A stretch of 64,000 bases of DNA, from positions 92,002 to 156,001 of the forward strand of contig CAYHBA010000002.1 in assembly GCA_964354755.1 (NCBI GenBank). Reading direction: 5' to 3'. The position numbers and the translations under genes are program-made. Below the pieces are notes generated by a model. The model was not told the DNA's origin. It did not search any database and saw only the letters and a program-made list of their open reading frames with translations. This document shows positions 10,964 through 26,813 of the stretch, piece by piece; the stretch's first letter is position 1; the number at the start of each line of letters is the position of its first letter. Origin of the DNA: an uncultured Thermoplasmata archaeon. GTDB taxonomy: Archaea; Thermoplasmatota; Thermoplasmata; SG8-5.

Positions 10964-11506
10964 CTAAGGGATGTTGAACGTTGTGTCTCCAACCAGCGAA
11001 CATACGCTATTCGTCTCGTAATGGAAGAGTATGACTTCGTATGTGGTGTGGGGATGCAGTCCTTCCACGATGATGAAGTCGCCGCTGTTCAGTTCCTGGC
11101 TGTTGTAGTTGAGGTCAGTATAAGTCGCTGAGGCCCCTCCCGTAGCCACCATATCCACGGTCGAAGCGCCCGGCATTCCGGAAAAGGTCAGTTCCACAAT
11201 GTCGGTTTTGTCTGTTATGTTGGTTATAATGGCCTTTATTTCTATGGGTGCCGGCGTGGGGCTGAACGTCCCGAATCCTATCTCAACACTGCTCTGGCTC
11301 TGAACATCAAGCATGATGCTCCCAGCCGGTGGGATATCGTCGGGCGGTCTGATGTTCATTACCATCACGTACAGCACCGCCGCCAAGACCACGGTGATGG
11401 CCACCATCAGGATGGTCGCTATCACCGGAGACACTCCTTCCTCGCTCCTTTGCTTCCATATCTTCTTCATGTTTAGTCCTCCTGCGGTTTCCCGCATGGA
11501 TAACAT
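10964..11506 (-). CDS. Archaeal type IV pilin-like protein with a class III signal peptide
   Basis: N-terminus is KQRSEEG followed by VSPVIATILMVAITVVLAAVLY. It is a paralog of the protein at 20451-20972, sharing a C-terminal domain MPGASTV...ATGGASA.YTD. Confidence 0.7.
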   Translation of the reverse strand: MLSMRETAGGLNMKKIWKQRSEEGVSPVIATILMVAITVVLAAVLYVMVMNIRPPDDIPPAGSIMLDVQSQSSVEIGFGTFSPTPAPIEIKAIITNITDKTDIVELTFSGMPGASTVDMVATGGASATYTDLNYNSQELNSGDFIIVEGLHPHTTYEVILFHYETNSVCSLVGDTTFNIP

Positions 11507-15844: not shown

Positions 15845-16053
15845 GCGAGGATAGCCAAGCCCGGCCAATTATGCTTACAGGCATCATTGCTTTGCAATGC
15901 AAGCTGAGTTCACAGGCCACGGCGATAGGAGCGGCCACACCTGGCCGCGACTAAGCCGATGACCGGATATCGGAGCCTGCAGGCATAGGTCATCGGCGAT
16001 AGACTCAAGATCTATTCCTTAGTGGTTCATCGGTTCGAATCCGATTCCTCGCA
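15845..16053 (+). tRNA. tRNA-Leu (anticodon CAA) with an intron of about 126 nt in the D-loop. Exons are 15845-15868 and 15995-16053.
   Basis: Acceptor GCGAGGA/TCCTCGC pairs 7 of 7. The Leu-type D-arm GCC-AAGCCCGGCCAA-[intron]-GGC is present. Anticodon arm is ATAGA-CTCAAGA-TCTAT, with a variable arm and T-arm ATCGG-TTCGAAT-CCGAT. The intron contains a 10-bp hairpin GCCGATGACC/GGTCATCGGC next to the 3' junction. Confidence 0.6.
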
Positions 16054-16430
16054 TATTATTTCCATAATCTCTTTGAGCATATGCTCGTCAGCACCGTTCC
16101 TTTCGCCGCAGCGAAAGGTATGCGCCCGGACGGGAAGTTTGAGAGAGACGAAACCGTGCGACCCATGCAAGAGCTAATAATATGGCACCCCGCCCTCTGC
16201 GCCGAATTGTGCGCAATTCGGCTTGCTCGCATCGATGTTGATAAACTGAAAGGAAGCTACGATGCTCGTACAGGCGGGGCTTGTTGCAGATAAACCGCCT
16301 TCATGCACGCCATGCGAAAGCGCACTCGCGGCCATATCGTTTCAAGACCCCGGGCTTACACCCGGGGCATGCTGGTGAGAAAGCGACGTGAATGGCGCTG
16401 GGTTGGCCGGCGCTCGTGCTGCGCCATCTA

Positions 16431-16469: not shown

Positions 16470-16572
16470 GGGCCGGTGGTCTAGTGGTTCTGGTGCCGGG
16501 TTTTCCGACATCAACACAAATGACGTCGCCCTTACAAGGCGAAGATCGGCGGTTCAATTCCGCCTCGGCCCA
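16470..16572 (+). tRNA. tRNA-Val (anticodon UAC) with a 30-nt intron in the D-loop (16490-16519)
   Basis: Acceptor is GGGCCGG/TCGGCCC with a G-U at 7-66. D-arm is GTC-TAGTGGTT-[intron]-AT-GAC. Anticodon arm is TCGCC-CTTACAA-GGCGA, followed by a 5-nt variable loop and T-arm GGCGG-TTCAATT-CCGCC. Confidence 0.65.
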
Positions 16573-16845
16573 CTCTTTTTTCATTTTGTTATCATACGTG
16601 GGCCTCAGCGGAATTCACAACTTATGGTGGGATATGTTGGGGTCTTAAGTTGTGAACACAGCCGAATTCCTCTGGTGTCATATGCTGAATACGGAATTCG
16701 GCTTGGCCGCGAAATATGCTTCGATATAGCCAGGGTCTTAATTCGCGGCTTCCGCCCCGGCCCCTGTGCAACTTCCGATTGCGGCCTTTGTGATGCTAGA
16801 CTTCGGGATTTTGGTGGGGGGATAAGCCGGGGGGAAGTCGCTTTA

Positions 16846-18951
16846 TCATACGATTTTTAACTTCATCCTCCTCTTCCTCGCGCAGATTGGACACCAATGT
16901 TTCTGTTTTACACTCGAAGGTGTAGCTTTCCATATGTGGCCATCTGCACATTGCCAATCTAACTTTATATGGTTTCCAAAGTATTTTTCTGAAAGGCAAC
17001 GACCGCCATGTTCAGCAGCCATCTCCCGCATCTTTTCAATAGTAAGTCTCTTCGGTCCCATTGTCTTTCTCATGCATGTAGTACACCAATGACCCGCTCT
17101 GATGTTTTGAGGTGTAGCCCACCATTCATGGCCAAATTCACAGCGCCAGTGTAGGTTAGTGCTATTATTGACATACACATCAGATAGACACTCACCTTTC
17201 CTTTCCCTGGCAATTTCTCGCATCATCTCGATTGTCAGTTTCTTTGCATTGTCTGAGCACTGCCTGCACCAATTACCCTTTTTTACACTGCTTGGATTCA
17301 TCGAGAACTTGTGCCCAATTTTACACTGCCATTTCAATTTGACATTTGCTCCAAGATACCTATCGGAAAGGCATTCTCCTCCCTGTTCTTTAGCTAATTC
17401 TCTCATTTCTTCAATGGAACCAACATTGTGTCCACAATATGGGCACCAACTACCACGAATTACATTGCTCGGTGTTGCCTTCCAGGTATGTCCTTTAGAA
17501 CATTGCCATTCTAATTTGCGATATATGCCCCGATATTCTTTGGATAGACAAAGACCGCCATGTTTCCTTGCTACTTCCATCATCTCTTCAATTGTTCTGT
17601 TTCGACCATAGCATTTCGGGCACCACGAGCCCATCTGTTTGATAGAATAAGGGATTGCTTCCCAAACATGTCCTTTACTACATCTCCATTTTAATTTCTT
17701 ATCTGTTGAATAATAAATATCAGATAAGCACTCCCCCCCTCGTTCTTTAGCCAGTTGCTGCATTTCTTCCAATCGTTTCCTGGAAAACACATCGAAATCC
17801 AGGTAATTAATTGTTGAAAGGTCTACATTGATGCTAATTTCTCTTTTTTTACATTCTTGAGCAATATATTGGCCCATCTCCTTGTGCGAAACGTCGTAAG
17901 GCACTTCAATCAGAGTGACATGGTTCCTGGCACATATTGACCGTTTCCATTGATCTCGTTGTATCAATTCATGTAATTTATCCTCCCCATATATCGGACG
18001 TGTGTGTTGAGCCCCCTGATATTCAAATGCCAGCTTCAGGTCTTTGTTAAACCCATCCAATTCCATTTTTTGCGATGTTTCTAAATTTACTAACCACGAA
18101 GGCCGTACCTTCTTGAATTTCACTCCGAAAATAGCCTCAAACCAGCCTCGGCAGATATTTTCACTGAGTGTGTTTCTACATATTGGGCACCAATTACCTT
18201 TATTAATTTCGGCCCAAGGGGCTTCCCAATCATGACCCTCGCAGCATTTCCATTTTAATTTTGTATGTGCGTTTTCATATTCATCAGATAGGCATTCGCC
18301 ACCTCTTTTTTTCGCTTCATTCTTCATTTGTTCAAGTGTATGTCTCATATGGCCAGAGCATTGAAGACACCATCGGCCAGTTCTAATGTCTCTCGGAGTA
18401 GCCCACCAAGTATGGCCTTTTTTGCATTGCCATTGTAATTTTGAAGCATTCCCCCCATAGTCAACCGAAAGGCATTTACCACCTTTCGCTGCAGCATTTA
18501 TTTTCAGGTCTTCAATGGTTAGCCGTTTCTGTCCAGCACATTCTGGACACCAATGTCCATTTATTATTGCTCCTAGGCTTGTTTTCCAAATATGTCCTTC
18601 TTTACATTGCCATTTCAAATGCGTTTTACTATTAACATATTTTTCAGAGAGGCATTTACCCCCTTTATTGTGTGCTATCTCTTGCATATCCTTGATTGTT
18701 TTACAAAAATGTCCTGCACACTCTGGGCACCATGTTCCCATTCTTATATGATTAGGAACTGCCTTCCAGACATGTCCTTTGGCACATTGCCATGTTAGAT
18801 GGGTTTGACTATTGATATATGCCTCTGAGAGACATTTGCCTCCCCGTTCCTTTGCAAGGTTCTGCATATCTTCTATTGTGTACCTTATCCGAGCCATTAT
18901 ATCACTCAATTGCTCGTCTTCGACCCCTTTCATAATATTCTTTACATTCAC
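16846..18951 (-). CDS. Protein with nine tandem zinc-ribbon repeats (4 + 5) flanking a central PD-(D/E)xK / DUF559-like nuclease domain
   Basis: The repeat unit is about 58 aa, for example LTIEDM.A.ERGGKCLS..Y.....L.WQC..GH.W.A.P...R.G.WCP.C.G. The central segment MELDGFNKDLKLAFEYQGAQH resembles the catalytic core of restriction-endonuclease-fold (Vsr/DUF559) proteins. Low GC. Confidence 0.65.
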   Translation of the reverse strand: MNVKNIMKGVEDEQLSDIMARIRYTIEDMQNLAKERGGKCLSEAYINSQTHLTWQCAKGHVWKAVPNHIRMGTWCPECAGHFCKTIKDMQEIAHNKGGKCLSEKYVNSKTHLKWQCKEGHIWKTSLGAIINGHWCPECAGQKRLTIEDLKINAAAKGGKCLSVDYGGNASKLQWQCKKGHTWWATPRDIRTGRWCLQCSGHMRHTLEQMKNEAKKRGGECLSDEYENAHTKLKWKCCEGHDWEAPWAEINKGNWCPICRNTLSENICRGWFEAIFGVKFKKVRPSWLVNLETSQKMELDGFNKDLKLAFEYQGAQHTRPIYGEDKLHELIQRDQWKRSICARNHVTLIEVPYDVSHKEMGQYIAQECKKREISINVDLSTINYLDFDVFSRKRLEEMQQLAKERGGECLSDIYYSTDKKLKWRCSKGHVWEAIPYSIKQMGSWCPKCYGRNRTIEEMMEVARKHGGLCLSKEYRGIYRKLEWQCSKGHTWKATPSNVIRGSWCPYCGHNVGSIEEMRELAKEQGGECLSDRYLGANVKLKWQCKIGHKFSMNPSSVKKGNWCRQCSDNAKKLTIEMMREIARERKGECLSDVYVNNSTNLHWRCEFGHEWWATPQNIRAGHWCTTCMRKTMGPKRLTIEKMREMAAEHGGRCLSEKYFGNHIKLDWQCADGHIWKATPSSVKQKHWCPICARKRRMKLKIV

Positions 18952-19156
18952 TCAACGTATAATCATTTAAAGACTTCGGTATATTGGCCGCAAACGTATC
19001 TAATATAAAAAATAATAAAACTCTTTTTACCTTTGGGGTTAATATTCCCTTTATATCTTCATCATTTCCTGTCCAATTTTGTTTTACAGCATATGTTACT
19101 AGTTCTTTCATTAGTCTTTGAAATTCAGCTTCCCGAAACATGCCATTCAACCTCAC
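18902..19156 (-). CDS. Hypothetical 84-aa protein; overlaps the start of the zinc-ribbon gene by 50 nt
   Basis: ORF only, no recognisable domain. Possibly co-transcribed with the gene at 16846. Confidence 0.25.
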   Translation of the reverse strand: MRLNGMFREAEFQRLMKELVTYAVKQNWTGNDEDIKGILTPKVKRVLLFFILDTFAANIPKSLNDYTLSECKEYYERGRRRAIE

Positions 19157-19209
19157 ACTTAATATCCATAATGATTTCAGAATGTATAATGGTTTACCGA
19201 AAGACTAAT

Positions 19210-19233
19210 AAAGAGAAAAAGAGGGACGATTTC
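19210..19233 (-). terminator. Shared T-rich terminator-like motif
   Basis: Minus-sense reads gaaatcgtccctctttttctcttt just 3' of the gene ending at 19269. Variants of the same motif occur at 23272-23297 and 26101-26123. Confidence 0.45.
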
Positions 19234-19268
19234 CTGAACAATACACATTTTTAATTGAGAATACAGCA

Positions 19269-19814
19269 TTATAGAACTATTCTTACCCAACATGAACCAA
19301 AACACACTGGGCATCTGCCAGTGCCATTGCAATATGAGCAAGGTTTTTTCAGAATACTACCAATTTTACCAGTCCCGTGGCACTGCGAACACATTCCTGA
19401 AGGCCTACCTGAAACCAATCCATATGGGCCTATTGGATCACAAGCAATGCAAGTGGCAACTCTCTGCCTCTGATGCTCTCTGCATAAATTACGACCTCCA
19501 TCATTAACGATTCTGCCCATGTTTGCCGCACTCTGGAATAGACCCTGTTCTCGCGAATTTAGTTTACTGCAAAAATAACATTCCTGTTTCTCGCAAATTT
19601 CACACTTGAATAAACGATTACCTTCTGTCAGAGTGTTACCACAATTTGGACATAATGGTAGACTGCTAACTGCCCCAGTGTGATGAACCTGCATACTATT
19701 TTCTTCTATCAGAACTTTACCTCCGCAATGACTGCAATATCCAATTTTTAAAGTATCTGGGAATTGAAGATCCGCACCACAATTTGGACATCTTGCAGGA
19801 ATTAAGTTCACCAT
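19269..19814 (-). CDS. Cys-rich zinc-finger protein with several CxxC/CxxCxGxG-type ribbons; start trimmed to the Met at 19814
   Basis: Contains CPNCGADL, CSHCGG, CPNCGNT, CEICEKQECYFC, CSQCHGTGK and CSYCNGTGRCPVCFGSC. Confidence 0.5.
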   Translation of the reverse strand: MVNLIPARCPNCGADLQFPDTLKIGYCSHCGGKVLIEENSMQVHHTGAVSSLPLCPNCGNTLTEGNRLFKCEICEKQECYFCSKLNSREQGLFQSAANMGRIVNDGGRNLCREHQRQRVATCIACDPIGPYGLVSGRPSGMCSQCHGTGKIGSILKKPCSYCNGTGRCPVCFGSCWVRIVL

Positions 19815-19835
19815 AACATTCCCTTTGTTAATGTT

Positions 19836-19860
19836 AAAGCCCGGTAATAAGGCTTTCGTC
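19836..19860 (-). promoter_or_regulatory. Shared promoter-like motif: a TTATTA TATA-like element sits inside the inverted repeat AAAGCC...GGCTTT
   Basis: Minus-sense reads gacgaaagccttattaccgggcttt about 38 nt upstream of the ATG at 19814. The same motif occurs upstream of at least four other island genes. Confidence 0.5.
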
Positions 19861-19917
19861 AGGAGGCAGGGATCCTCCGGCAGGGCATCACGCCGGCCAG
19901 GGGCTTCAGGATACATT

Positions 19918-20355
19918 CTACCATATGTAATGTTTAACATTATTTCGACAATTAATGCAATATCTTGTATCTGGTGCAAGATTGGTTTTGCATCGGTGAC
20001 ATTCAAAATAACCTTTTTCTCTAATCATTTCTATTCGATTTAAATTATATAATCCCTCTAAGAATAATAAGATTGAACATAAAATAAGGATTATCCACGT
20101 ATATACACGAGTATGTATTAGTTCATTCCATCCTTTAATAAGGGGTATAACAATTATTATCATCCATACAATGATTGGAGAAAAAATTGAGGTGTAAGTA
20201 TACCATTTTAATTTTCGAGGTATTGCGTTGTTTTGAAGAATGTATGTTTTTTGAACATGCCCGCATTTGTCACATTTTGATGTCGAAATGGGATTTGCAC
20301 AGTAACCGCACCAGTTATGATGGAAATCACTTCTTTGAGGAATAATTGTTGACAT
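19918..20355 (-). CDS. Zinc-ribbon membrane protein, hypothetical
   Basis: N-terminal C-x2-C...C-x2-C ribbon. C-terminal C-x2-C...C-x2-C ribbon. Two or three TM helices lie between them. Confidence 0.4.
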   Translation of the reverse strand: MSTIIPQRSDFHHNWCGYCANPISTSKCDKCGHVQKTYILQNNAIPRKLKWYTYTSIFSPIIVWMIIIVIPLIKGWNELIHTRVYTWIILILCSILLFLEGLYNLNRIEMIREKGYFECHRCKTNLAPDTRYCINCRNNVKHYIW

Positions 20356-20370
20356 GCGCCTTTCGCCCCT

Positions 20371-20406
20371 CAAGTGAATGCGAAAGCCCGGTAATAAGGC
20401 TTTCGT
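20371..20406 (-). promoter_or_regulatory. Shared promoter-like motif copy upstream of the gene starting at 20355
   Basis: Minus-sense reads acgaaagccttattaccgggctttcgcattcacttg, followed by gaggggcgaaaggcgc and then ATG. Confidence 0.5.
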
Positions 20407-20450
20407 AAGCCAGCCCAGTGGTAATTTCGCCTTGGTCTTTGATCTTCGAC

Positions 20451-20972
20451 TTAATCCAGTGTGAAGGTTGTAGGTTCATCCATCCGAAGTAAATCCTCCC
20501 ATGAATATTCCCAAATGACTACCGAATAAGTCGTATGCTGACCAAGGTTAGAAACAACGATGAAATCATTTTTATTAACCTCATTCTCCTGGAAATTCAT
20601 GTCTGTGTACTCTGCTGATGCGCCTCCTGTTGCACTCATCGTAACAGTTGATGCGCCCGGTGGGGTCTGTAAATATATTTCCACAACATCAGATTGATTC
20701 GAAGTATTGGTGATAATCAATTTTATATCACATGGCATTGGATTATAACTGGGTGGTGGGTGTCCAGCTAATATCTCCATAAAAATGATTTTCACACTCG
20801 TTGAACTTTGAACATCGAATTGTAGTTTGGCATGAGGGGATGTGTCTTTGGGTGGTCCGAATGGACCTATACCCAATGCCATTGCGAGAGTTAGCGGAAT
20901 TAAAACTGCCCCGGCTACTACAATGAAAATAATTTCACCTTTGTAATTCTCCCAATTCCTTTTGGATTTCAT
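20451..20972 (-). CDS. Archaeal type IV pilin-like protein (class III signal peptide); paralog of the protein at 10964-11506
   Basis: KG then EIIFIVVAGAVLIPLTLAMAL. The shared C-terminal domain is PPGASTVTMSATGGASAEYTDMNF. Confidence 0.65.
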   Translation of the reverse strand: MKSKRNWENYKGEIIFIVVAGAVLIPLTLAMALGIGPFGPPKDTSPHAKLQFDVQSSTSVKIIFMEILAGHPPPSYNPMPCDIKLIITNTSNQSDVVEIYLQTPPGASTVTMSATGGASAEYTDMNFQENEVNKNDFIVVSNLGQHTTYSVVIWEYSWEDLLRMDEPTTFTLD

Positions 20973-21028
20973 TGCATATGAATTGATTTGAATCTATATA
21001 TAGTTATTATTGACATGTCAATAATGAT

Positions 21029-21055
21029 CCTGTAACAAGGCTTTCGTTTGTTACC
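21029..21055 (-). promoter_or_regulatory. Shared promoter-like motif variant upstream of the pilin-like gene
   Basis: cctgtaacaaggctttcgtttgttacc lies about 60 nt upstream of the start at 20972. Confidence 0.35.
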
Positions 21056-21111
21056 AATCCACAGTCCAAACAGCATCCACTGGGACATGAATCCAAAATA
21101 TCCGAGTATTT

Positions 21112-21199
21112 TTCTTTTAAATTTTCTCCGCTGGCTCGGGCTCTAAAGAAAAATATTCAGCAAAGAAGAAACTCGCCACTCGCCTGCTCGAAAATTCAT
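21112..21199 (-). terminator. T-rich terminator-like element (repeat family 2, copy 2) 3' of the surface-protein gene
   Basis: About 80% identical over 90 nt to the element at 3126-3218. Minus-sense is T-rich. Confidence 0.45.
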
Positions 21200-23215
21200 T
21201 TACCAATTAATTGTCCATATCGTATCCGCAACCACGTGTACCCAGTACCCTTCGCCCGGCTTCATGATGTATGTCGGGCCGGCCTCGGATATTAGGTATG
21301 GTGAGGCAGGGTCGAAGACCTCCACCCGATTCGCCCCTGTACCCCAGAGGGCGTTGGCTACTGTGGTATTATTGTTCAAGGTGGGGAAGCTGACCAGGTT
21401 CCAACCCGCGTAAAGAATGATGCTGGTGGATTGCGGTTCCGCCCCGAAAACTGTCAAGTTGCAGGCCACCGTGGCGTGTAGCCATAAACCCATCGTGTTG
21501 TCGATATAGGTGAGGTCGTTGGCTGTGCCTCCTATTCGGTATGACTTCCAAGGATCCATTTTATCTGTTGGGTCGCACCATTTCACGACATCCCATTTTC
21601 CAGAAATGGAGGACAGTACATTCTCTATTGAGGTACTGGTCATTTCGAAAGGCACAGAGACGAGGTTCCAACCAGCTATAAGTTCGATGGTGCAGACCTG
21701 TGGCAAGGGTTGCCACCGGAACAACGGGTAAGTAATACCCTCCCTCATCCACCAGATGTTTTCGAAGTCCCAGCTTACGTTAGTAAATGTGCTCTGGGTT
21801 TTCATCACGACCGTTGTTTCTCCGGTAGCGTTGCCCGCGGTGCTGTTTTGCCCGCTGGTTTCGACGTCCCAGAAGTTGCCAGTCATCTCATAGTTCCCGC
21901 CTGTGAATATGTCTCCGACAAAGCCTTTGTTCGTTGGATTTGAACCACCATAATAAATCACCTGGCCCGTGGAATAACAGTTGATGATCTTGCCTTGATA
22001 ATTTCTCGCGGCAAACCCACCGAAATACTCATTTGTCCCAGATGAACGTGTCACTGTTCCAGTGGCGTATGAATTTCTAATAGTTCCTAGATAATTCTGA
22101 CTCACTAGTCCGCCAACATACCATACACTTCCACTTACGTTTCCAGTAGCATACGATTTATTAACCGTTCCCCTATTCTGTCCTATTAAACCACCAACAT
22201 TGGATTCTCCAGTTGTGGCTCCAGTGGCATAACAAGCCCTCACTGAGCCCATATTTTCTCCTATTAAGCCACCTATATTATTGAAAGAACCAGTCACTGT
22301 TCCAATGGCGAATGAGTCAATTACAGCGCACCCCCCTAATTCGTTGTAGCCCACGAGTCCTCCCACAATAGAACCACCAATAACATTTCCCATGGCATGT
22401 GAGTTTAAAACCAGGTCTCGGTTTACTCCCACGAGCCCGCCGACACTACCACCGGTACCGCTCACATTTACAATGGCATATGAGTTGTTCACCGTGTCAT
22501 AGTTCGCTCCTATAAGCCCACCGATTCGATGTTTTCCATTCACGGTGCCTGTAGCATGTGAGTTGGCCACAATACCATAGCTGTAACCCACAAGCCCGCC
22601 AATATAATAACTACCAGTTCCACTAACGGTACCTATGGCATATGAATTTGTTATCGTACCCTGATAGTTTTGACCTACGAGCCCGCCAACATACTCGTAT
22701 CCACTCACGGTTCCAGTGCAGTATGAGTTGGTCACTGTATCACAGTTAAATCCCACCAGGCCGCCAACATTGGATCTTCCAGTGATATTGACTTCAATGA
22801 GGCCAACGTTCTTTACGAAACCCCCACTATCAATATATCCGAGGAGTCCTTGATAATTCGTACCCGTTCGGTTGATGTGCAGTCCAGTGATGGTGAAGTT
22901 CTGGCCGTCAAGACTACCGGTAAACCGATTTGGATTTGTTCCAACCGCCACGAAACCTGCGCCACTGTTCCAGTTTATAGTATCGTGCGCGTCAATGTCA
23001 TTCCCCAATGCATAATGTGCCGTTAAGTTCAAACTCATATTTTGCAGTTCCCACACATTCTCAATTATATACGGGTCCTCGACCGTTCCGGAACCCCCAG
23101 CTAAAGCGGTTACTGGTACATCTGAACTCACAACCTCATCCACACATATTCCCACAAACATGCCGCTGAGAAGCATCAGGGCAACGATATAAATTAAGAT
23201 TGACTTCTTCCACAT
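21200..23215 (-). CDS. Secreted surface protein with GLUG-motif beta-helix repeats (VGGLVG.N.G.I.NSYATG) and a duplicated C-terminal beta domain
   Basis: Signal peptide MWKKSILIYIVALMLLSG. More than 12 GGLVG/GGLIG repeats. The C-terminal GWNLVS.P...EAGPTYIMKPGEGYWVHV domain occurs twice. Confidence 0.6.
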   Translation of the reverse strand: MWKKSILIYIVALMLLSGMFVGICVDEVVSSDVPVTALAGGSGTVEDPYIIENVWELQNMSLNLTAHYALGNDIDAHDTINWNSGAGFVAVGTNPNRFTGSLDGQNFTITGLHINRTGTNYQGLLGYIDSGGFVKNVGLIEVNITGRSNVGGLVGFNCDTVTNSYCTGTVSGYEYVGGLVGQNYQGTITNSYAIGTVSGTGSYYIGGLVGYSYGIVANSHATGTVNGKHRIGGLIGANYDTVNNSYAIVNVSGTGGSVGGLVGVNRDLVLNSHAMGNVIGGSIVGGLVGYNELGGCAVIDSFAIGTVTGSFNNIGGLIGENMGSVRACYATGATTGESNVGGLIGQNRGTVNKSYATGNVSGSVWYVGGLVSQNYLGTIRNSYATGTVTRSSGTNEYFGGFAARNYQGKIINCYSTGQVIYYGGSNPTNKGFVGDIFTGGNYEMTGNFWDVETSGQNSTAGNATGETTVVMKTQSTFTNVSWDFENIWWMREGITYPLFRWQPLPQVCTIELIAGWNLVSVPFEMTSTSIENVLSSISGKWDVVKWCDPTDKMDPWKSYRIGGTANDLTYIDNTMGLWLHATVACNLTVFGAEPQSTSIILYAGWNLVSFPTLNNNTTVANALWGTGANRVEVFDPASPYLISEAGPTYIMKPGEGYWVHVVADTIWTINW

Positions 23216-23387
23216 CGTGGATAATAGGAACGTTCTGCTAAATTAACCTTTCCTATGTGATTTATAGTTCATAAAAGAGAAAAAGATGGCCGGTTTCCCC
23301 GCATTCCGAGATTTTAATTCACGTATGAACTAACCTTTAGCCAGCAGAGTCAGATTCAATTCCGCCTTTAATGGACGAATCCAGATA

Positions 23388-25733
23388 CTACCAATCCACA
23401 GTCCATATTGTATCCGTTGGGACATGTACCCAGTACCCTTCGCCCGGCTTCATGATGTATGTCGGGCCGGCCTCCTTGATGTAAGGCGAAACAGAGTCGA
23501 ACGCCTCCACCCTATCCGCTCCCGTGCCCGAGAGAGCCTCTGCGACTGTCATTTCCGAATTCCGGGCCGGGTATCCGACCATGTTCCATCCTGTGTGCAG
23601 AGATATGCTTGTGGATGCGGGCATAATTCCCTCGCCTGCGGTCAGCACCCCGTCCCCGCCGTTGTCGGTGATGTGGAGCCAGATGCCCATGGTATTGTCG
23701 ATCTCCGGCATGTCGTTTGACGATGCCTGCCCTTTCTTATTGAATGATTTCCAGGGGTCCGCAGCATCCTGGGTGTCGAACCACATCGCCCGGTCCCAGG
23801 TCGTGCCGCCGTCTCCATACAATACATCGTTGAACACGGCAGTAATTCTTGTATGGACAGTCAATGGTACGGAAACGAAGGTCCAATAGCCGGTGCCGTC
23901 TCTTGACCGGTTGCTATCTGTATTCACGTCGAAAGTCTTCCAGTTGAACGGCCCTGCTTCCGGCGCAGTGCCGTTGGCAGGAATGCCGACATCATCGGCT
24001 CCGCCCTTCGCGTTCGCGATCCAGTAGAATTTACTCGGCTTTGGGCAGGGATTGGATTCGGGGGTCCAGTCGAACGAGCCATCCACACTTGCATCTGTCC
24101 CGATACAGTTCCAGTTGTCTCCGTGGTTCGTAGAATAAAACAGGTCGATTTCTGTCGGGGTTTCTGTCCAGTTATAGGTGATTGTAATGATTGGGTCGTG
24201 GCCGGCGCCCTGGGGGCCGGTGGCGGTGGCTGTTGAATTTGAATAAACCGTGACGTTTAAAGTATCAATTGAATACAAACCAGTTGTACTTGTAACATTT
24301 AAAGTCACAGTATAGACCCCTATAGATTCATATTTATGAGTTGGAGTAGAACCTATTGCGTCAATATCATTCGTTGGATTACCATCTTGATTAGTATCAA
24401 TATTAGCATTGAAATCCCAACTATAACTAAGTACTTCTGCATTTTTTGCATTATCCCATTGCCAGAGTAGATTTGAACCACCTGCTGTGGTGAACACGTA
24501 TAAAGTTCCATTTGAAGTTGCGCCAGCGTAATAATTTCCATCAAAAGAGCATGAGATATGATTGACAATTCCATTAGTATAAAAAATAGATTCTGGTGTT
24601 CCATTTGCTGGCGTGAATTGATATATTCCTCCATCTTGATTACCGCCAAAGATGTATTGACCATCAGTAGCCATATCTAATGACATACATGCCATACTGG
24701 TCACATGGGTCCAAATTGGAGAAGAACTTGAATTACTGAAAAGTCGAAACCCGTGAGAGGTAGAGGCTCCCCTAGTCTTATACTCTGCAGTGGCAATATA
24801 TTGACCATTATCTGCTGTAACCATCCCGATATGTTTCCCCAAAGATTCTGCAACCCATATACGATTTCCATTGTTATTAAATAACTGTGTATGTTGTAAA
24901 TCGCCTTGTCCCGCTGCAATTTTATTACCATAATAATCTAAAGAAATAGTATAAATTGGACAAAAATAATCAGAATTTTCAGGGAGTATTTTAAAAATGA
25001 AACCTTCTGAAATACCATAATACCGAATTTCATACCAGAATGAGCCTGCGGCAAAGTGAGTACCGTCACCCGAAAATCGAACACTCAATACGGACTGAGG
25101 GAAATCAAAAATATTTATTGGTGATCCTGAATTTGTTTCAAAGAGATAAACTTTACCTACTTTTTCCATTTGAGCTGAAATAGAGAGAAATGTTCCTAGA
25201 GCAATATAATTTCCATCACGAGTCATATCGAAGGCTCTCCGACTTGTTCCATATATGGGATAATTGGTTTGATATGTCCATATCGGTGTACTTTGATTGG
25301 TATTAAAAAAGGAAACATAACCTCTCGATTCCCAAGTATTTGATGGGTCATCATTTTGTGCGGTTGCAAGGTATGTGCCATTTTCAGAAAGAACAACAGC
25401 TACAACTGTTTTTTCAGTGTTAAATGTCCAAAGAGGCTCACTGTTGTTAAGATGAAATAAAGTAATATTTGTTCCCCATCCAATAACAATATAATTACCA
25501 TCCCCAGATATATCTACTACATTAATCGCTTGTCTGTAATTTGGATCATAAGATCCAGTTCCATTGAACTGAACGATTTCATTTACATCTACAAATTGAT
25601 CTGGACCAGCATCAGCTATTGGTGGCAATAAATTATTTATTATATTTTTATCTATGGTTGAAGAAATAACAGTGGGGCTGATGAGAAGAATAACAATTAC
25701 TATTGGTAAGAAAAATGTTCTCATACTTTTCAC
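23388..25733 (-). CDS. Secreted surface protein with beta-propeller repeats, a PKD domain and a C-terminal domain shared with the protein at 21200-23215
   Basis: Signal peptide is present. Propeller blades are YIATA- and YFAAG-type. The PKD-like segment reads TPTHKYESIGVYTVTLNVTSTTG. The last roughly 45 aa are nearly identical to the neighbour at 21200, with a 50-nt identical stretch in the DNA. Confidence 0.6.
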   Translation of the reverse strand: MKSMRTFFLPIVIVILLISPTVISSTIDKNIINNLLPPIADAGPDQFVDVNEIVQFNGTGSYDPNYRQAINVVDISGDGNYIVIGWGTNITLFHLNNSEPLWTFNTEKTVVAVVLSENGTYLATAQNDDPSNTWESRGYVSFFNTNQSTPIWTYQTNYPIYGTSRRAFDMTRDGNYIALGTFLSISAQMEKVGKVYLFETNSGSPINIFDFPQSVLSVRFSGDGTHFAAGSFWYEIRYYGISEGFIFKILPENSDYFCPIYTISLDYYGNKIAAGQGDLQHTQLFNNNGNRIWVAESLGKHIGMVTADNGQYIATAEYKTRGASTSHGFRLFSNSSSSPIWTHVTSMACMSLDMATDGQYIFGGNQDGGIYQFTPANGTPESIFYTNGIVNHISCSFDGNYYAGATSNGTLYVFTTAGGSNLLWQWDNAKNAEVLSYSWDFNANIDTNQDGNPTNDIDAIGSTPTHKYESIGVYTVTLNVTSTTGLYSIDTLNVTVYSNSTATATGPQGAGHDPIITITYNWTETPTEIDLFYSTNHGDNWNCIGTDASVDGSFDWTPESNPCPKPSKFYWIANAKGGADDVGIPANGTAPEAGPFNWKTFDVNTDSNRSRDGTGYWTFVSVPLTVHTRITAVFNDVLYGDGGTTWDRAMWFDTQDAADPWKSFNKKGQASSNDMPEIDNTMGIWLHITDNGGDGVLTAGEGIMPASTSISLHTGWNMVGYPARNSEMTVAEALSGTGADRVEAFDSVSPYIKEAGPTYIMKPGEGYWVHVPTDTIWTVDW

Positions 25734-26049
25734 TTCACCTATAATATGAATGATTATGCATCCTTATAATGTTTTCGTGTAAGCTTACTAAAATTAGATA
25801 ATAAATGGTCATTTTTAGACATTTTAATATGCTGGCACCTGACCACCATTTAGTAAAAATACAAGTTCTTCTCCTATCTGTAATGTAGTAAGTGAACTTC
25901 TGTTTCCAATTAAACGAAATTCTAATCCCCCACAACCTAATCTATTTCTAAACGACTTTAAAATCTTTTCTATTTACTTACGATGACCGCCAAACACTTT
26001 GTTTTTTATGCACATTAATCGGGCATACAGCCCTAGCCAGTAGTCGCTT

Positions 26050-26091
26050 GCCCCAAGTGAATGCGAAAACTCAGTATTAAGGGTTTCGTCG
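26050..26091 (-). promoter_or_regulatory. Shared promoter-like motif variant, about 320 nt upstream of the start at 25733 across an AT-rich leader
   Basis: ccccaagtgaatgcgaaaactcagtattaagggtttcgtcg is related to the motif at 20371-20406. Confidence 0.35.
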
Positions 26092-26142
26092 ATAAGAAGA
26101 AAGAGAAAAAGGGGGACGATTTCGTCGCCTTCCATTTCGCCC

Positions 26143-26673
26143 CTAGTACTTCCTAAAATCCAGGAACGTCATCCCCTTCCTGGCCCTCTCCCTCTCCTCC
26201 TTCAGATGCTGCTGCAATCCGACCTTCATCACCCGTTCGTGGTGCTTCAGAACCACCGGGTACCTGCCGCGCTGGTATTCCGTCCTCTTGCAGGTCGGGA
26301 ACGTCTCGCACAGAAGGCAGCTCTTCAGCTTCCGCGCTTTCTTGCATTTCATGACCTCGCACCACGGCTCCTTGATGTTCTGGCATCCGGGGCACTTCAT
26401 CTTGGAGAGCCACACAAGCCCTTTGTCCATGTCCCCGAAGTCGAAGTCCACCGAATCCTGGGCCCACAGGCAGTTGCCTTTGGTTGTGCGGGAGAGCTCT
26501 GTGGCCAGTTCGGCCACCCTTCCGTTACCGGTGGGGCACATCTCGCAGAACACGCCGCAGACACCGTATGTATATTCTTGTTTAGGGGTTTTCTTCATGG
26601 CAATCGCTCTCCGCAGTGCTGGCAGAAATCTCTCGCGCATTTGAGGTATCTGCCTTGCCTGGATAGGACCCAT
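26143..26673 (-). CDS. Cys-rich protein, DUF3795-like, possible metal or Fe-S binding
   Basis: Contains CGVFCEMCP, CPGCQ, CEVMKC and CLLCETFPTC. The start could be the internal Met at 26598. Confidence 0.4.
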   Translation of the reverse strand: MGPIQARQIPQMRERFLPALRRAIAMKKTPKQEYTYGVCGVFCEMCPTGNGRVAELATELSRTTKGNCLWAQDSVDFDFGDMDKGLVWLSKMKCPGCQNIKEPWCEVMKCKKARKLKSCLLCETFPTCKRTEYQRGRYPVVLKHHERVMKVGLQQHLKEERERARKGMTFLDFRKY

Positions 26674-26777
26674 CGTAAATCAAGTTTCTTTTTCTTGGGT
26701 GTTTTTTTTGGTAATTGTTTGCCGCACCATGGACATGTATTCGAATCGCATTGCATGTCGCATTCTTCCTTCATCGC

Positions 26778-26813
26778 GTGTGAATGTTAAGTTCTCGTAA
26801 TAAGGTTTTCGTC
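26778..26813 (-). promoter_or_regulatory. Shared promoter-like motif variant upstream of the Cys-rich protein gene
   Basis: gtgtgaatgttaagttctcgtaataaggttttcgtc. Confidence 0.35.

What the first reader, a model, noticed from the sequence alone, without database searches (positions are those of the whole stretch)
16846..18951. Protein with nine zinc ribbons and an embedded PD-(D/E)xK-like nuclease domain
Nine copies of a roughly 58-aa unit, of the form LTIE-M...A...GG-CLS..Y.......L-W-C..GH-W.......(R/K)-G-WCP-C, are arranged four before and five after a central segment of about 110 aa. That central segment's core, MELDGFNKDLKLAFEYQGAQH...HVTLIEVPY, resembles the catalytic beta-strands of Vsr/DUF559-type restriction-endonuclease-fold enzymes. 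Comparable tandem probable-zinc-ribbon arrays occur mostly in large DNA viruses and a few bacteria, and are unusual in an archaeon. The architecture suggests a nucleic-acid-targeting nuclease, for defence or homing, guided by a multi-ribbon array.
Basis: partly seen in the sequence, partly recalled or inferred. Interest (0 to 1): 0.6.

Follow-up and report, generated by a model that had tools for sequence, protein, structure and literature searches.

The report
Zinc-finger-array homing-type endonuclease gene
This archaeal gene encodes a DNA-cutting enzyme whose Vsr-type nuclease domain sits between four and five zinc-finger DNA-binding modules; it is a typical member of a very large, recently noticed family of probably selfish "homing" nucleases, so it is real but ordinary.

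Summary
ORF 16846-18951 (-) encodes 701 aa with nine 56-aa Cys/His repeats, four before and five after a 133-aa central domain. The repeats match Pfam DUF4379 and CapR.

The architecture is not rare. The nuclease profile finds 31,288 cluster representatives. All but one of the 120 best full-length homologs carry the same domain inside arrays of 7-16 repeats. 34 of the 80 best genomic loci are archaeal, so "unusual in an archaeon" is wrong. A 2025 paper already describes CapR-like arrays fused to EDxHD/Vsr-like nucleases as a large unrecognised homing-endonuclease group.

The gene lies at the edge of a low-GC island next to a tRNA-Val gene. A sister genome lacks it, and it has no conserved partner gene. 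The most likely reading is a free-standing, site-specific homing-type endonuclease. It is a new member of a known kind, and its activity and target are untested.

The parts
16846..18951 (-). Complete ORF, 701 aa (GTG start; the alternative ATG start at 18933 gives 695 aa). Architecture: 4 zinc modules, nuclease, 5 zinc modules.
18712..18879 (-). Zinc-finger repeat 1 (aa 25-80), CapR/DUF4379 type
18532..18699 (-). Zinc-finger repeat 2 (aa 85-140)
18352..18519 (-). Zinc-finger repeat 3 (aa 145-200)
18172..18339 (-). Zinc-finger repeat 4 (aa 205-260)
17773..18171 (-). Central Vsr/EDxHD-like nuclease domain (aa 261-393)
17944..18162 (-). Catalytic core, aa 264-336. Invariant residues are E264, D299, E310, H316, D333 and K336; Q312 stands at the Vsr His64 position.
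   Evidence: Conservation in 112 homologous domains. The mapping to Vsr and I-Bth0305I residues rests on spacing and on PMC3239194, so it is inferred.
17605..17772 (-). Zinc-finger repeat 5 (aa 394-449)
17428..17595 (-). Zinc-finger repeat 6 (aa 453-508)
17251..17418 (-). Zinc-finger repeat 7 (aa 512-567)
17068..17235 (-). Zinc-finger repeat 8 (aa 573-628)
16876..17043 (-). Zinc-finger repeat 9 (aa 637-692)
18952..19268 (-). AT-rich upstream region (GC about 0.34) with a TATA-like TTTATATTA about 65-75 nt before the ATG. Probably the gene's own promoter (inferred).
16846..26143 (.). Strain-specific, mostly low-GC variable island, with the nuclease gene at its left edge. The sister genome L090 has an unrelated 5.9-kb segment here.
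16470..16572 (+). tRNA-Val(UAC) gene with an insertion of about 30 nt in the D arm, 273 nt from the stop codon of the nuclease gene. It is context only (the island border), not part of the gene.

Best explanation
The gene encodes a free-standing, site-specific DNA endonuclease of the homing (selfish) type.

Proposed mechanism:
- Nine CapR/DUF4379-type zinc modules, joined by short flexible linkers, bind a long DNA site. Four lie on one side of the nuclease domain and five on the other.
- The variable face of each module's beta-hairpin probably supplies sequence specificity.
- The central Vsr/EDxHD-type domain then cleaves between the two half-arrays. It would use Mg2+ held by D299 (with E310 and D333) and H316 as general base, as in Vsr and I-Bth0305I.
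- Whether the enzyme nicks as a monomer or makes a double-strand break as a dimer is not known.

The gene was acquired horizontally into a variable island next to a tRNA-Val gene in a Thermoplasmata-class archaeon.

What is shown: the domain composition, the fold, the residue conservation, the family size, the lack of partner genes and the absence from a sister genome. What is inferred: DNA binding by the modules, catalysis, target length and homing.
For: Fold and active site:
- The central-domain model has pLDDT 93.9.
- E264, D299, E310, H316, D333 and K336 are invariant in 112 homologs. Their spacing matches Vsr E25/D51/F62-position/H69/D97 and I-Bth0305I E170/D196/H213/D222, as described in PMC3239194.

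Homology to homing endonucleases:
- hhalign of the domain profile to phage 0305phi8-36 ORF194 'homing nuclease' gives 99.3% probability, E 4.5e-20.
- hhalign to AR9 gp146, annotated 'group I intron VSR' and lying inside the virion RNA polymerase beta' gene, gives 95.2%, E 2.6e-8.
- PHROGs: phrog_559 at 8e-96 for the full protein. The central domain alone hits intron-encoded and homing endonuclease families.
- In Kayvirus and Schiekvirus phages the homologs sit free-standing between the tail-tube (or adjacent virion structural) gene and the downstream tail genes.

Modules bind DNA:
- Pfam CapR and DUF4379 both score above cut-off.
- CapR-type zinc fingers are experimentally DNA-binding and form arrays in phage homing endonucleases (PMC10448857; bioRxiv 10.64898/2026.02.23.707548).
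- PMC12350094 describes CapR-like arrays plus an EDxHD/Vsr-like nuclease as a large unrecognised homing-endonuclease group.

Selfish or accessory behaviour:
- Gene GC is 0.42 against 0.56 in the flanks.
- Sister genome L090 (79-93% nt identity in the flanks) lacks the gene.
- A related contig carries two tandem copies.
- No neighbour is conserved across 80 loci, except lineage synteny in Asgard archaea.
- Copy GC is lower than the flank in 37 of 78 loci.
- Decayed copies exist: a frameshift in L046 and an IS insertion in L082.
- Copies on Bacillus megaplasmids sit next to IS elements.
- There is no PADLOC hit.
Against: - No experiment exists for any member with a central nuclease domain. Cleavage, target and homing are all inferred.
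- The gene is not inside an intron or intein.
- The sister genome differs by replacement of the whole 9.3-kb island, not by a clean insertion of this gene alone. The presence/absence pattern therefore does not prove that the gene itself moves.
- Sequence profiles do not reach I-Bth0305I or Vsr directly. That link is structural, plus transitive through phage genes whose 'homing endonuclease' labels are annotations.
- Nine Asgard genomes keep a copy in conserved synteny next to SMC. This looks like vertical inheritance and could mean that some members serve the host.
Confidence: 0.6

Rival explanations
1. It is a single-gene defence nuclease. The zinc-module array recognises foreign DNA (virus or plasmid) and the Vsr-like domain destroys it, to the benefit of the archaeal host.
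For: - It lies in a strain-specific variable island, where defence genes often sit.
- Giant-virus homologs are annotated 'restriction endonuclease' (PMC5513546).
- The catalytic residues are intact.
Against: - There is no hit to 5,027 PADLOC defence models.
- There is no methyltransferase or other partner, and no defence genes among the neighbours. The island encodes surface proteins.
- No neighbour is conserved in 80 loci.
- The closest annotated relatives are intron-encoded or free-standing phage homing endonucleases.
- A nuclease without an immunity partner must avoid the host genome purely through its site specificity.
Confidence: 0.15
2. It is a domesticated descendant of a homing endonuclease that now serves the host, for example as a sequence-specific DNA-binding regulator or a repair or chromosome-maintenance nuclease.
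For: - CapR itself and the CasPR anti-CRISPR proteins are DNA-binding repressors built on this type of module; CapR is described as derived from homing-endonuclease DNA-binding domains.
- Nine Promethearchaeota genomes keep a copy in conserved synteny beside SMC.
Against: - In this window the gene is absent from the sister genome and has foreign GC content. That is not expected of a host function.
- All catalytic residues are retained, so it is not a pure DNA binder.
Confidence: 0.12
3. It is an RNA-targeting nuclease or RNA-binding protein, like the eukaryotic RAP/FASTK domains, which share the Vsr-like fold.
Against: - Vsr and I-Bth0305I, both DNA enzymes, score higher.
- Sequence-level homology is to DNA homing endonucleases.
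- The attached CapR-type modules bind DNA in the cases tested.
Confidence: 0.04

Closest known systems
Phage homing endonucleases with 3-5 CapR/DUF4379/DUF723-like domains and an EDxHD/Vsr-like nuclease (group I/II intron-encoded, e.g. in the phage AR9 virion RNA polymerase beta' gene; PMC12350094)
   Same: The two domain types are the same: zinc modules of about 60 aa and a Vsr-like nuclease of about 100 aa. The nuclease profile aligns to AR9 gp146 at 95.2% probability, with the D, E, H and D..K columns matched. The paper notes thousands of unannotated relatives.
   Different: Here the nuclease is in the middle (4 + 5 modules) rather than C-terminal. There are nine modules rather than 3-5. 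The gene is free-standing in an archaeal chromosome, not inside a phage intron.
I-Bth0305I, prototype of the EDxHD homing endonuclease family (PDB 3R3P; PMC3239194)
   Different: Its DNA-binding region is an N-terminal NUMOD/helix-turn-helix region, not zinc modules. It is encoded in a group I intron in phage recA. No sequence-profile match to it was found.
Vsr very-short-patch repair endonuclease (PDB 1CW0)
   Different: Vsr is a stand-alone T:G mismatch nickase with its own zinc site and intercalating Trp residues. No sequence similarity is detectable (hhalign probability 0.2%).
T5orf172 (GIY-YIG-like) homing endonucleases with tandem CapR/DUF723/DUF4379 zinc-finger arrays (phage ICP1 and others; PMC10448857)
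   Same: They use the same kind of repeated zinc-finger DNA-binding array. The repeats of this protein find homing-endonuclease genes in 189 phage records.
   Different: The nuclease domain is unrelated (T5orf172 instead of Vsr-like).
[quoted passage not shown]
   Same: The nuclease domain is the same (Foldseek TM up to 0.88, 29-40% identity). It occurs in proteins of 400-900 aa, several of which are named zinc-ribbon or treble-clef zinc-finger proteins.
   Different: The hosts are viruses of eukaryotes. These proteins are also functionally untested.

Membership tests
Pfam DUF4379 (probable treble-clef zinc finger) | Score above the Pfam gathering cut-off (24.5 bits) | tested here: met
   124.7 bits, E 1.6e-36, 9 stretches
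Pfam CapR homology domain (PF21817) | Score above the gathering cut-off (24.2 bits) | tested here: met
   61.4 bits, E 9.1e-17, 4 stretches
Pfam CapR homology domain (PF21817) | Zinc-dependent, sequence-specific DNA binding | not testable with these tools
   Known only from experiments on CapR and CasPR proteins. Here the C16, C32, H36, C51 and C54 columns of the repeat are 97-100% conserved in 1,269 repeats.
EDxHD / Vsr-like homing endonucleases | Vsr-like variant of the restriction-endonuclease fold | tested here: met
EDxHD / Vsr-like homing endonucleases | Conserved E, D, H, D active-site residues (I-Bth0305I E170, D196, H213, D222) | tested here: met
   E264, D299, H316 and D333 are invariant in 112 homologs. 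The D-to-H spacing is +17, as in I-Bth0305I. The residue mapping rests on spacing and on the AR9 gp146 alignment, not on a residue-level superposition.
EDxHD / Vsr-like homing endonucleases | Sequence homology to characterised members | tested here: inconclusive
   The profile finds no PDB sequence, including 3R3P, at E <= 10. It does match phage genes annotated as VSR-type or homing endonucleases.
EDxHD / Vsr-like homing endonucleases | Site-specific cleavage of the gene-less allele, and homing | not testable with these tools
   Only indirect evidence: the gene is absent from sister genome L090, tandem copies exist and decayed copies exist.
Canonical PD-(D/E)xK nucleases | The D...(D/E)-x-K motif with a catalytic Lys | tested here: not met
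   The motif is D299...E310-Y-Q312. The third position is Q/H/N in homologs, as in the Vsr lineage. The fold is nevertheless of the PD-(D/E)xK superfamily.
Pfam Vsr / DUF559 / DUF2726 models | Score above the gathering cut-off | tested here: not met
   There is no Vsr or DUF559 hit at E <= 10. DUF2726 scores 12.2 bits against a cut-off of 24.7. 15 of 40 homologs hit DUF2726 at E <= 1, with a best E of 0.0028.
Known anti-phage defence systems (PADLOC-DB 2.0) | Match to any defence-protein model | tested here: not met
   0 families for the whole protein and for the central domain

The most novel reading that the evidence does not exclude
The arrays might form a modular DNA-recognition code. In this reading each 56-aa module reads a fixed few base pairs through the hypervariable face of its beta-hairpin. 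Arrays of 0-6 modules on either side of a central Vsr-type nickase or nuclease would then specify long asymmetric sites. That would be a natural counterpart of engineered zinc-finger or TALE nucleases, with specificity that could be re-arranged by shuffling modules.
Probability: 0.2. Interest if true: 0.7.

Novelty: new member of a known kind. Interest (0 to 1): 0.3.

Why it matters
This locus adds an intact archaeal example, with a defined genomic setting, to a very large family of zinc-finger-array nucleases that has barely been studied. The family has about 31,000 sequence clusters, its nuclease domain has no Pfam model, and no member with a central nuclease has been tested.

If the modules read DNA in a modular way, the family could be a source of programmable nucleases or nickases. 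It could also explain some of the gene turnover in archaeal variable islands.

For annotation, the practical gain is that proteins labelled 'zinc-ribbon domain-containing protein' can be read as probable Vsr/EDxHD-type site-specific endonucleases.

Tried and rejected
- Pfam and NCBIfam on the central domain found nothing above cut-off.
- phmmer and a 40-sequence profile against all PDB sequences gave no hit.
- hhalign of the profile against E. coli Vsr gave no signal.
- I tried to bridge to 3R3P through phage ORF194, SapYZU04 orf65 and AR9 gp146. Only chance hits came back.
- A word-indexed search with the central domain alone found just 2 proteins. That was misleading, because the exhaustive HMM search found 31,288.
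- Foldseek of the full-length model against the PDB was uninformative, because the domains are loosely tethered (pTM 0.38). No solved structural relative of the zinc module was therefore identified, and the zinc ligands could not be assigned. The candidates are C16, C32, H36, C51 and C54 of the repeat.
- An exact look-up of P0003 gave no record.
- I looked for an integrase, for direct repeats of the tRNA 3' end, and for a methyltransferase in or around the island. None was found, so I rejected 'integrated element with att sites' and 'restriction-modification system'.
- I considered an intron or intein setting and rejected it. The gene is flanked by non-coding DNA on both sides.
- I rejected an inactive nuclease domain, because every catalytic column is invariant.

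Full report

Yes. The minus-strand ORF 16846..18951 encodes 701 aa from a GTG start. An identical protein that starts at the ATG six codons further in (695 aa) is on record from a 279,807-bp NCBI contig (P0003).

The sequence has nine 56-aa repeats: aa 25-80, 85-140, 145-200 and 205-260, then 394-449, 453-508, 512-567, 573-628 and 637-692. Linkers are 3-8 aa and pairwise identity is 39-63%. Pfam DUF4379 ('probable treble clef zinc finger') matches in nine stretches (E 1.6e-36). The CapR homology domain PF21817 matches in four stretches. Both scores are far above their curated cut-offs.

The segment between repeats 4 and 5 is 133 aa (aa 261-393).

**2. What is the central domain?**

Sequence libraries do not name it.
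- Pfam and NCBIfam give nothing above cut-off. DUF2726, itself a family of unknown function, is the only recurrent weak Pfam hit; phage proteins named after it also match the nuclease model structurally. It appears in 15 of 40 homologs, with a best E of 0.0028.
- A 40-sequence profile finds no PDB sequence.

Structure is clear.
- An AlphaFold2 model built from that alignment has pLDDT 93.9 and pTM 0.87.

Conservation agrees with the fold.
- In 112 homologous domains the invariant residues are E264, E297-L-D299-G300, A308-F-E310, G313, Q315-H316, D333, K336 and C340.
- The I-Bth0305I paper lists the shared active site as Vsr E25, D51, H64, H69 and D97, equivalent to I-Bth0305I E170, D196, N208, H213 and D222. 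It adds an acidic residue at the position of Vsr F62 (PMC3239194).
- Here D299 to E310 is +11 (Vsr D51 to F62 is +11). D299 to Q312 is +13 (Vsr D51 to H64 is +13). D299 to H316 is +17 (I-Bth0305I D196 to H213 is +17). D333 lies on the following helix.
- This mapping is inferred from spacing and secondary structure. I could not superpose coordinates.

Sequence homology does reach phage homing endonucleases.
- The domain profile aligns to ORF194 'homing nuclease' of phage 0305phi8-36 at 99.3% probability.
- It aligns to AR9 gp146 at 95.2%, with the D, E, H and D..K columns in register. gp146 is annotated 'group I intron VSR' and lies inside the split virion RNA polymerase beta' gene.
- PHROGs gives phrog_559 at 8e-96 for the whole protein. 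The central domain alone hits 'intron encoded nuclease' and 'homing endonuclease' families.

**3. What are the repeats?**

CapR is the capsid repressor of a Vibrio phage satellite. Its zinc-finger DNA-binding domain is shared with phage T5orf172 homing endonucleases. In those enzymes CapR, DUF723 and DUF4379-type fingers occur as tandem arrays that are thought to give target specificity (PMC10448857). Deletion and Cys-to-Ser mutants show that CapR domains are needed for DNA-directed repression by CasPR anti-CRISPR proteins (bioRxiv 10.64898/2026.02.23.707548).

The full-length model has confident modules (pLDDT 80-90) joined by low-confidence linkers, with pTM 0.38. That means beads on a string. 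Each module is a helix, a short strand, a beta-hairpin that carries C-x3-H, a short helix and the terminal C-P-x-C.

Across 1,269 repeats from 120 homologs the scaffold is nearly invariant: A9, G14, C16, S18, Y21, L28, W30, C32, G35, H36, W38, W50, C51 and C54. The alternating hairpin positions 29, 33-34, 37, 39, 41 and 43-44, together with 19-25, 47, 49 and 53, are highly variable. A specificity-determining surface would look like this, but the result does not prove one exists. Which four of the five Cys/His residues bind zinc could not be decided.

**4. How common is it?**

It is very common.
- The full protein has more than 4,154 relatives in the word-indexed search. All but one of the 120 best carry the same nuclease domain inside arrays of 7-16 repeats, and nine is the modal number.
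- An exhaustive HMM search with the nuclease profile finds 31,288 50%-identity cluster representatives at E <= 1e-3 and 10,091 at E <= 1e-10. The domain is usually internal in these proteins.
- In one genome per species, 378 loci match. 34 of the best 80 are archaeal: Nanoarchaeota, Woesearchaeota, Aenigmatarchaeota, Micrarchaeota, Altarchaeum, Methanosarcinales, Thermoplasmata, Methanomassiliicoccales and Promethearchaeota.
- The layout 'n modules, nuclease, m modules', with n and m from 0 to 6, is the rule.
- Giant viruses carry the same nuclease domain (TM up to 0.88, 29-40% identity) in proteins of 400-900 aa. Several of those are named zinc-ribbon or treble-clef zinc-finger proteins (PMC5513546).

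**5. Genomic setting**

The window comes from a Thermoplasmata-class archaeon, judged from the PolD small subunit. Its best named relative is a Thermoplasmata MAG at 64% identity.

The gene has GC 0.42 against 0.55-0.58 around it. It lies at the left edge of a low-GC stretch that runs from about 16.85 to 26.1 kb. Its stop codon is 273 nt from a tRNA-Val(UAC) gene that carries an insertion of about 30 nt in the D arm.

A sister genome (L090) has 79-93% nucleotide identity in the flanking genes. It keeps the tRNA and a conserved block of about 100 nt, and the similarity runs to within about 5 nt of the stop codon. It then has an unrelated 5.9-kb segment in place of window 16855-26144, and it has no copy of the gene.

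The island's other genes encode zinc-ribbon, pilin-like, GLUG-repeat and beta-propeller/PKD surface proteins. There is no integrase, methyltransferase or known defence gene.

A related metagenomic contig (L005) carries two tandem copies, 78% and 58% identical to this protein, also at low GC beside high-GC DNA.

Elsewhere the gene sits in varied places:
- between housekeeping genes TatD and FtsY in another archaeal MAG;
- beside IS4 elements on a Bacillus thuringiensis megaplasmid;
- between the tail-tube (or adjacent virion structural) gene and the downstream tail genes in two phage genera.

Across 80 loci no neighbour is conserved, apart from lineage synteny in Asgard archaea. Gene GC is lower than the flank by at least 0.03 in 37 of 78 loci. 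Decayed copies exist, with a frameshift in L046 and an IS insertion in L082.

**6. Most likely mechanism**

Taken together, this is a stand-alone, horizontally moving gene for a site-specific endonuclease. I propose that the two zinc-module arrays bind DNA on either side of the cut site. The Vsr-type domain would then cleave with Mg2+ bound by D299, E310 and D333, and with H316 as general base.

Vsr nicks as a monomer, whereas I-Bth0305I dimerises to make a double-strand break. Which applies here is unknown.

I put 0.6 on the homing-type reading. The rivals are a partner-less defence nuclease (0.15), a domesticated host factor (0.12) and an RNA-directed RAP-like function (0.04). Most of the uncertainty comes from three points:
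- no central-nuclease member has been tested;
- the sister genome differs by a whole-island swap rather than by a clean insertion;
- Asgard copies look vertically inherited.

**7. Novelty and score**

Both domains, their fusion and the size of the family are already in the literature. This locus is a new archaeal member with the nuclease in the centre of the array, and that layout is itself the common one in cellular genomes. A specialist would not be surprised.

Some value remains. The family is huge, it is untested, and it has no Pfam model for its nuclease domain. The variable hairpin face also hints at modular recognition.

Interest: 0.3.

Noticed in passing
window 16470-16572 (+): A tRNA-Val(UAC) gene with an insertion of about 30 nt in the D arm. 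ARAGORN missed it and it scores below the Rfam gathering cut-off. ARAGORN calls tRNA-Val once 25-38 nt are removed. The exons are conserved and the insert differs in sister genome L090, as expected of an intron at a non-canonical position.
   Followed up: yes
window 15979-16053 (+): A tRNA-like sequence (Leu-CAA-like, with a long variable arm) scores 28.6 bits, just under the Rfam cut-off of 29, and has mismatches in the acceptor stem. The region is 92% identical in L090. It may be a real or a decaying tRNA gene.
   Followed up: partly
window 16846-26143, compared with L090 11934-17868: A hypervariable island lies between the tRNA-Val gene and a DUF3795 gene. The two sister genomes carry unrelated low-GC gene sets here. 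Both sets encode membrane or surface proteins (GLUG repeats and beta-propeller/PKD in the window, a PKD protein in L090).
   Followed up: partly
window 21201-21286 and 23389-23474: The two large secreted proteins (21200-23215 and 23388-25733) share a C-terminal domain. It is 87% identical at nucleotide level over 86 nt and has higher GC than the rest of the genes. A short third copy lies at 21052-21095.
   Followed up: no
window 19821-19859, 20368-20406, 21029-21047, 26051-26089, 26774-26812: A repeated motif of 19-39 nt (ACGAAAGCCTTATTACCGG on the minus strand) lies just upstream of several minus-strand genes. It looks like a shared archaeal BRE/TATA promoter. It also suggests that the true starts of ORFs 19269-20006 and 19918-20373 lie downstream of the listed TTG codons.
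   Followed up: partly
window 16750-16845: A GC-rich block of about 100 nt abuts the stop codon of the nuclease gene. It is conserved in L090, which lacks the gene, and contains the inverted repeat GACTTC...GAAGTC. Its function is unknown. It could be a small RNA, a terminator or a candidate target region.
   Followed up: no
L005 2-4428: Two tandem copies of the gene have a 4-nt overlap (78% and 58% identical to the window protein). A gene for a possible M54-like peptidase (faint Pfam hit only) follows. The low-GC block abuts DNA of GC 0.58 that contains a 73-nt element 79% identical to window 16318-16390.
   Followed up: partly
L020, L021, L023, L041, L042, L043, L046, L048, L053 (Promethearchaeota MAGs): Asgard copies have a long, variable N-terminal extension (up to 1,078 aa before the nuclease). 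They lie in conserved synteny next to a gene for a 1,484-aa protein that reads as SMC-like (not run through Pfam) and two further shared genes of about 396 and 321 aa. This suggests vertical inheritance and perhaps a host role. The L046 copy is frameshifted.
   Followed up: partly
L068 and L072 (contig CAZWLZ010000001.1, 43,772 bp): The same 593-aa family member occurs near both ends of one contig, in opposite orientation. This may reflect inverted terminal repeats of a mobile element or virus.
   Followed up: no
window 10964-11506 (-) and 20451-20972 (-): Two paralogous ORFs have an N-terminal hydrophobic segment and read as possible pilin-like (class III signal peptide) proteins, though Pfam found nothing for 20451-20972. 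One lies in the core region and one in the island. The island copy is about 40% identical to the L090 counterpart of the core-region gene.
   Followed up: no
window 18902-19156 (-): An 84-aa ORF overlaps the start of the nuclease gene by 32-50 nt. A repeated AT-rich motif (19184-19233) lies upstream of it, with further copies at 23248-23297 and 26074-26123. It has no Pfam match, and whether it is a gene is unknown.
   Followed up: no
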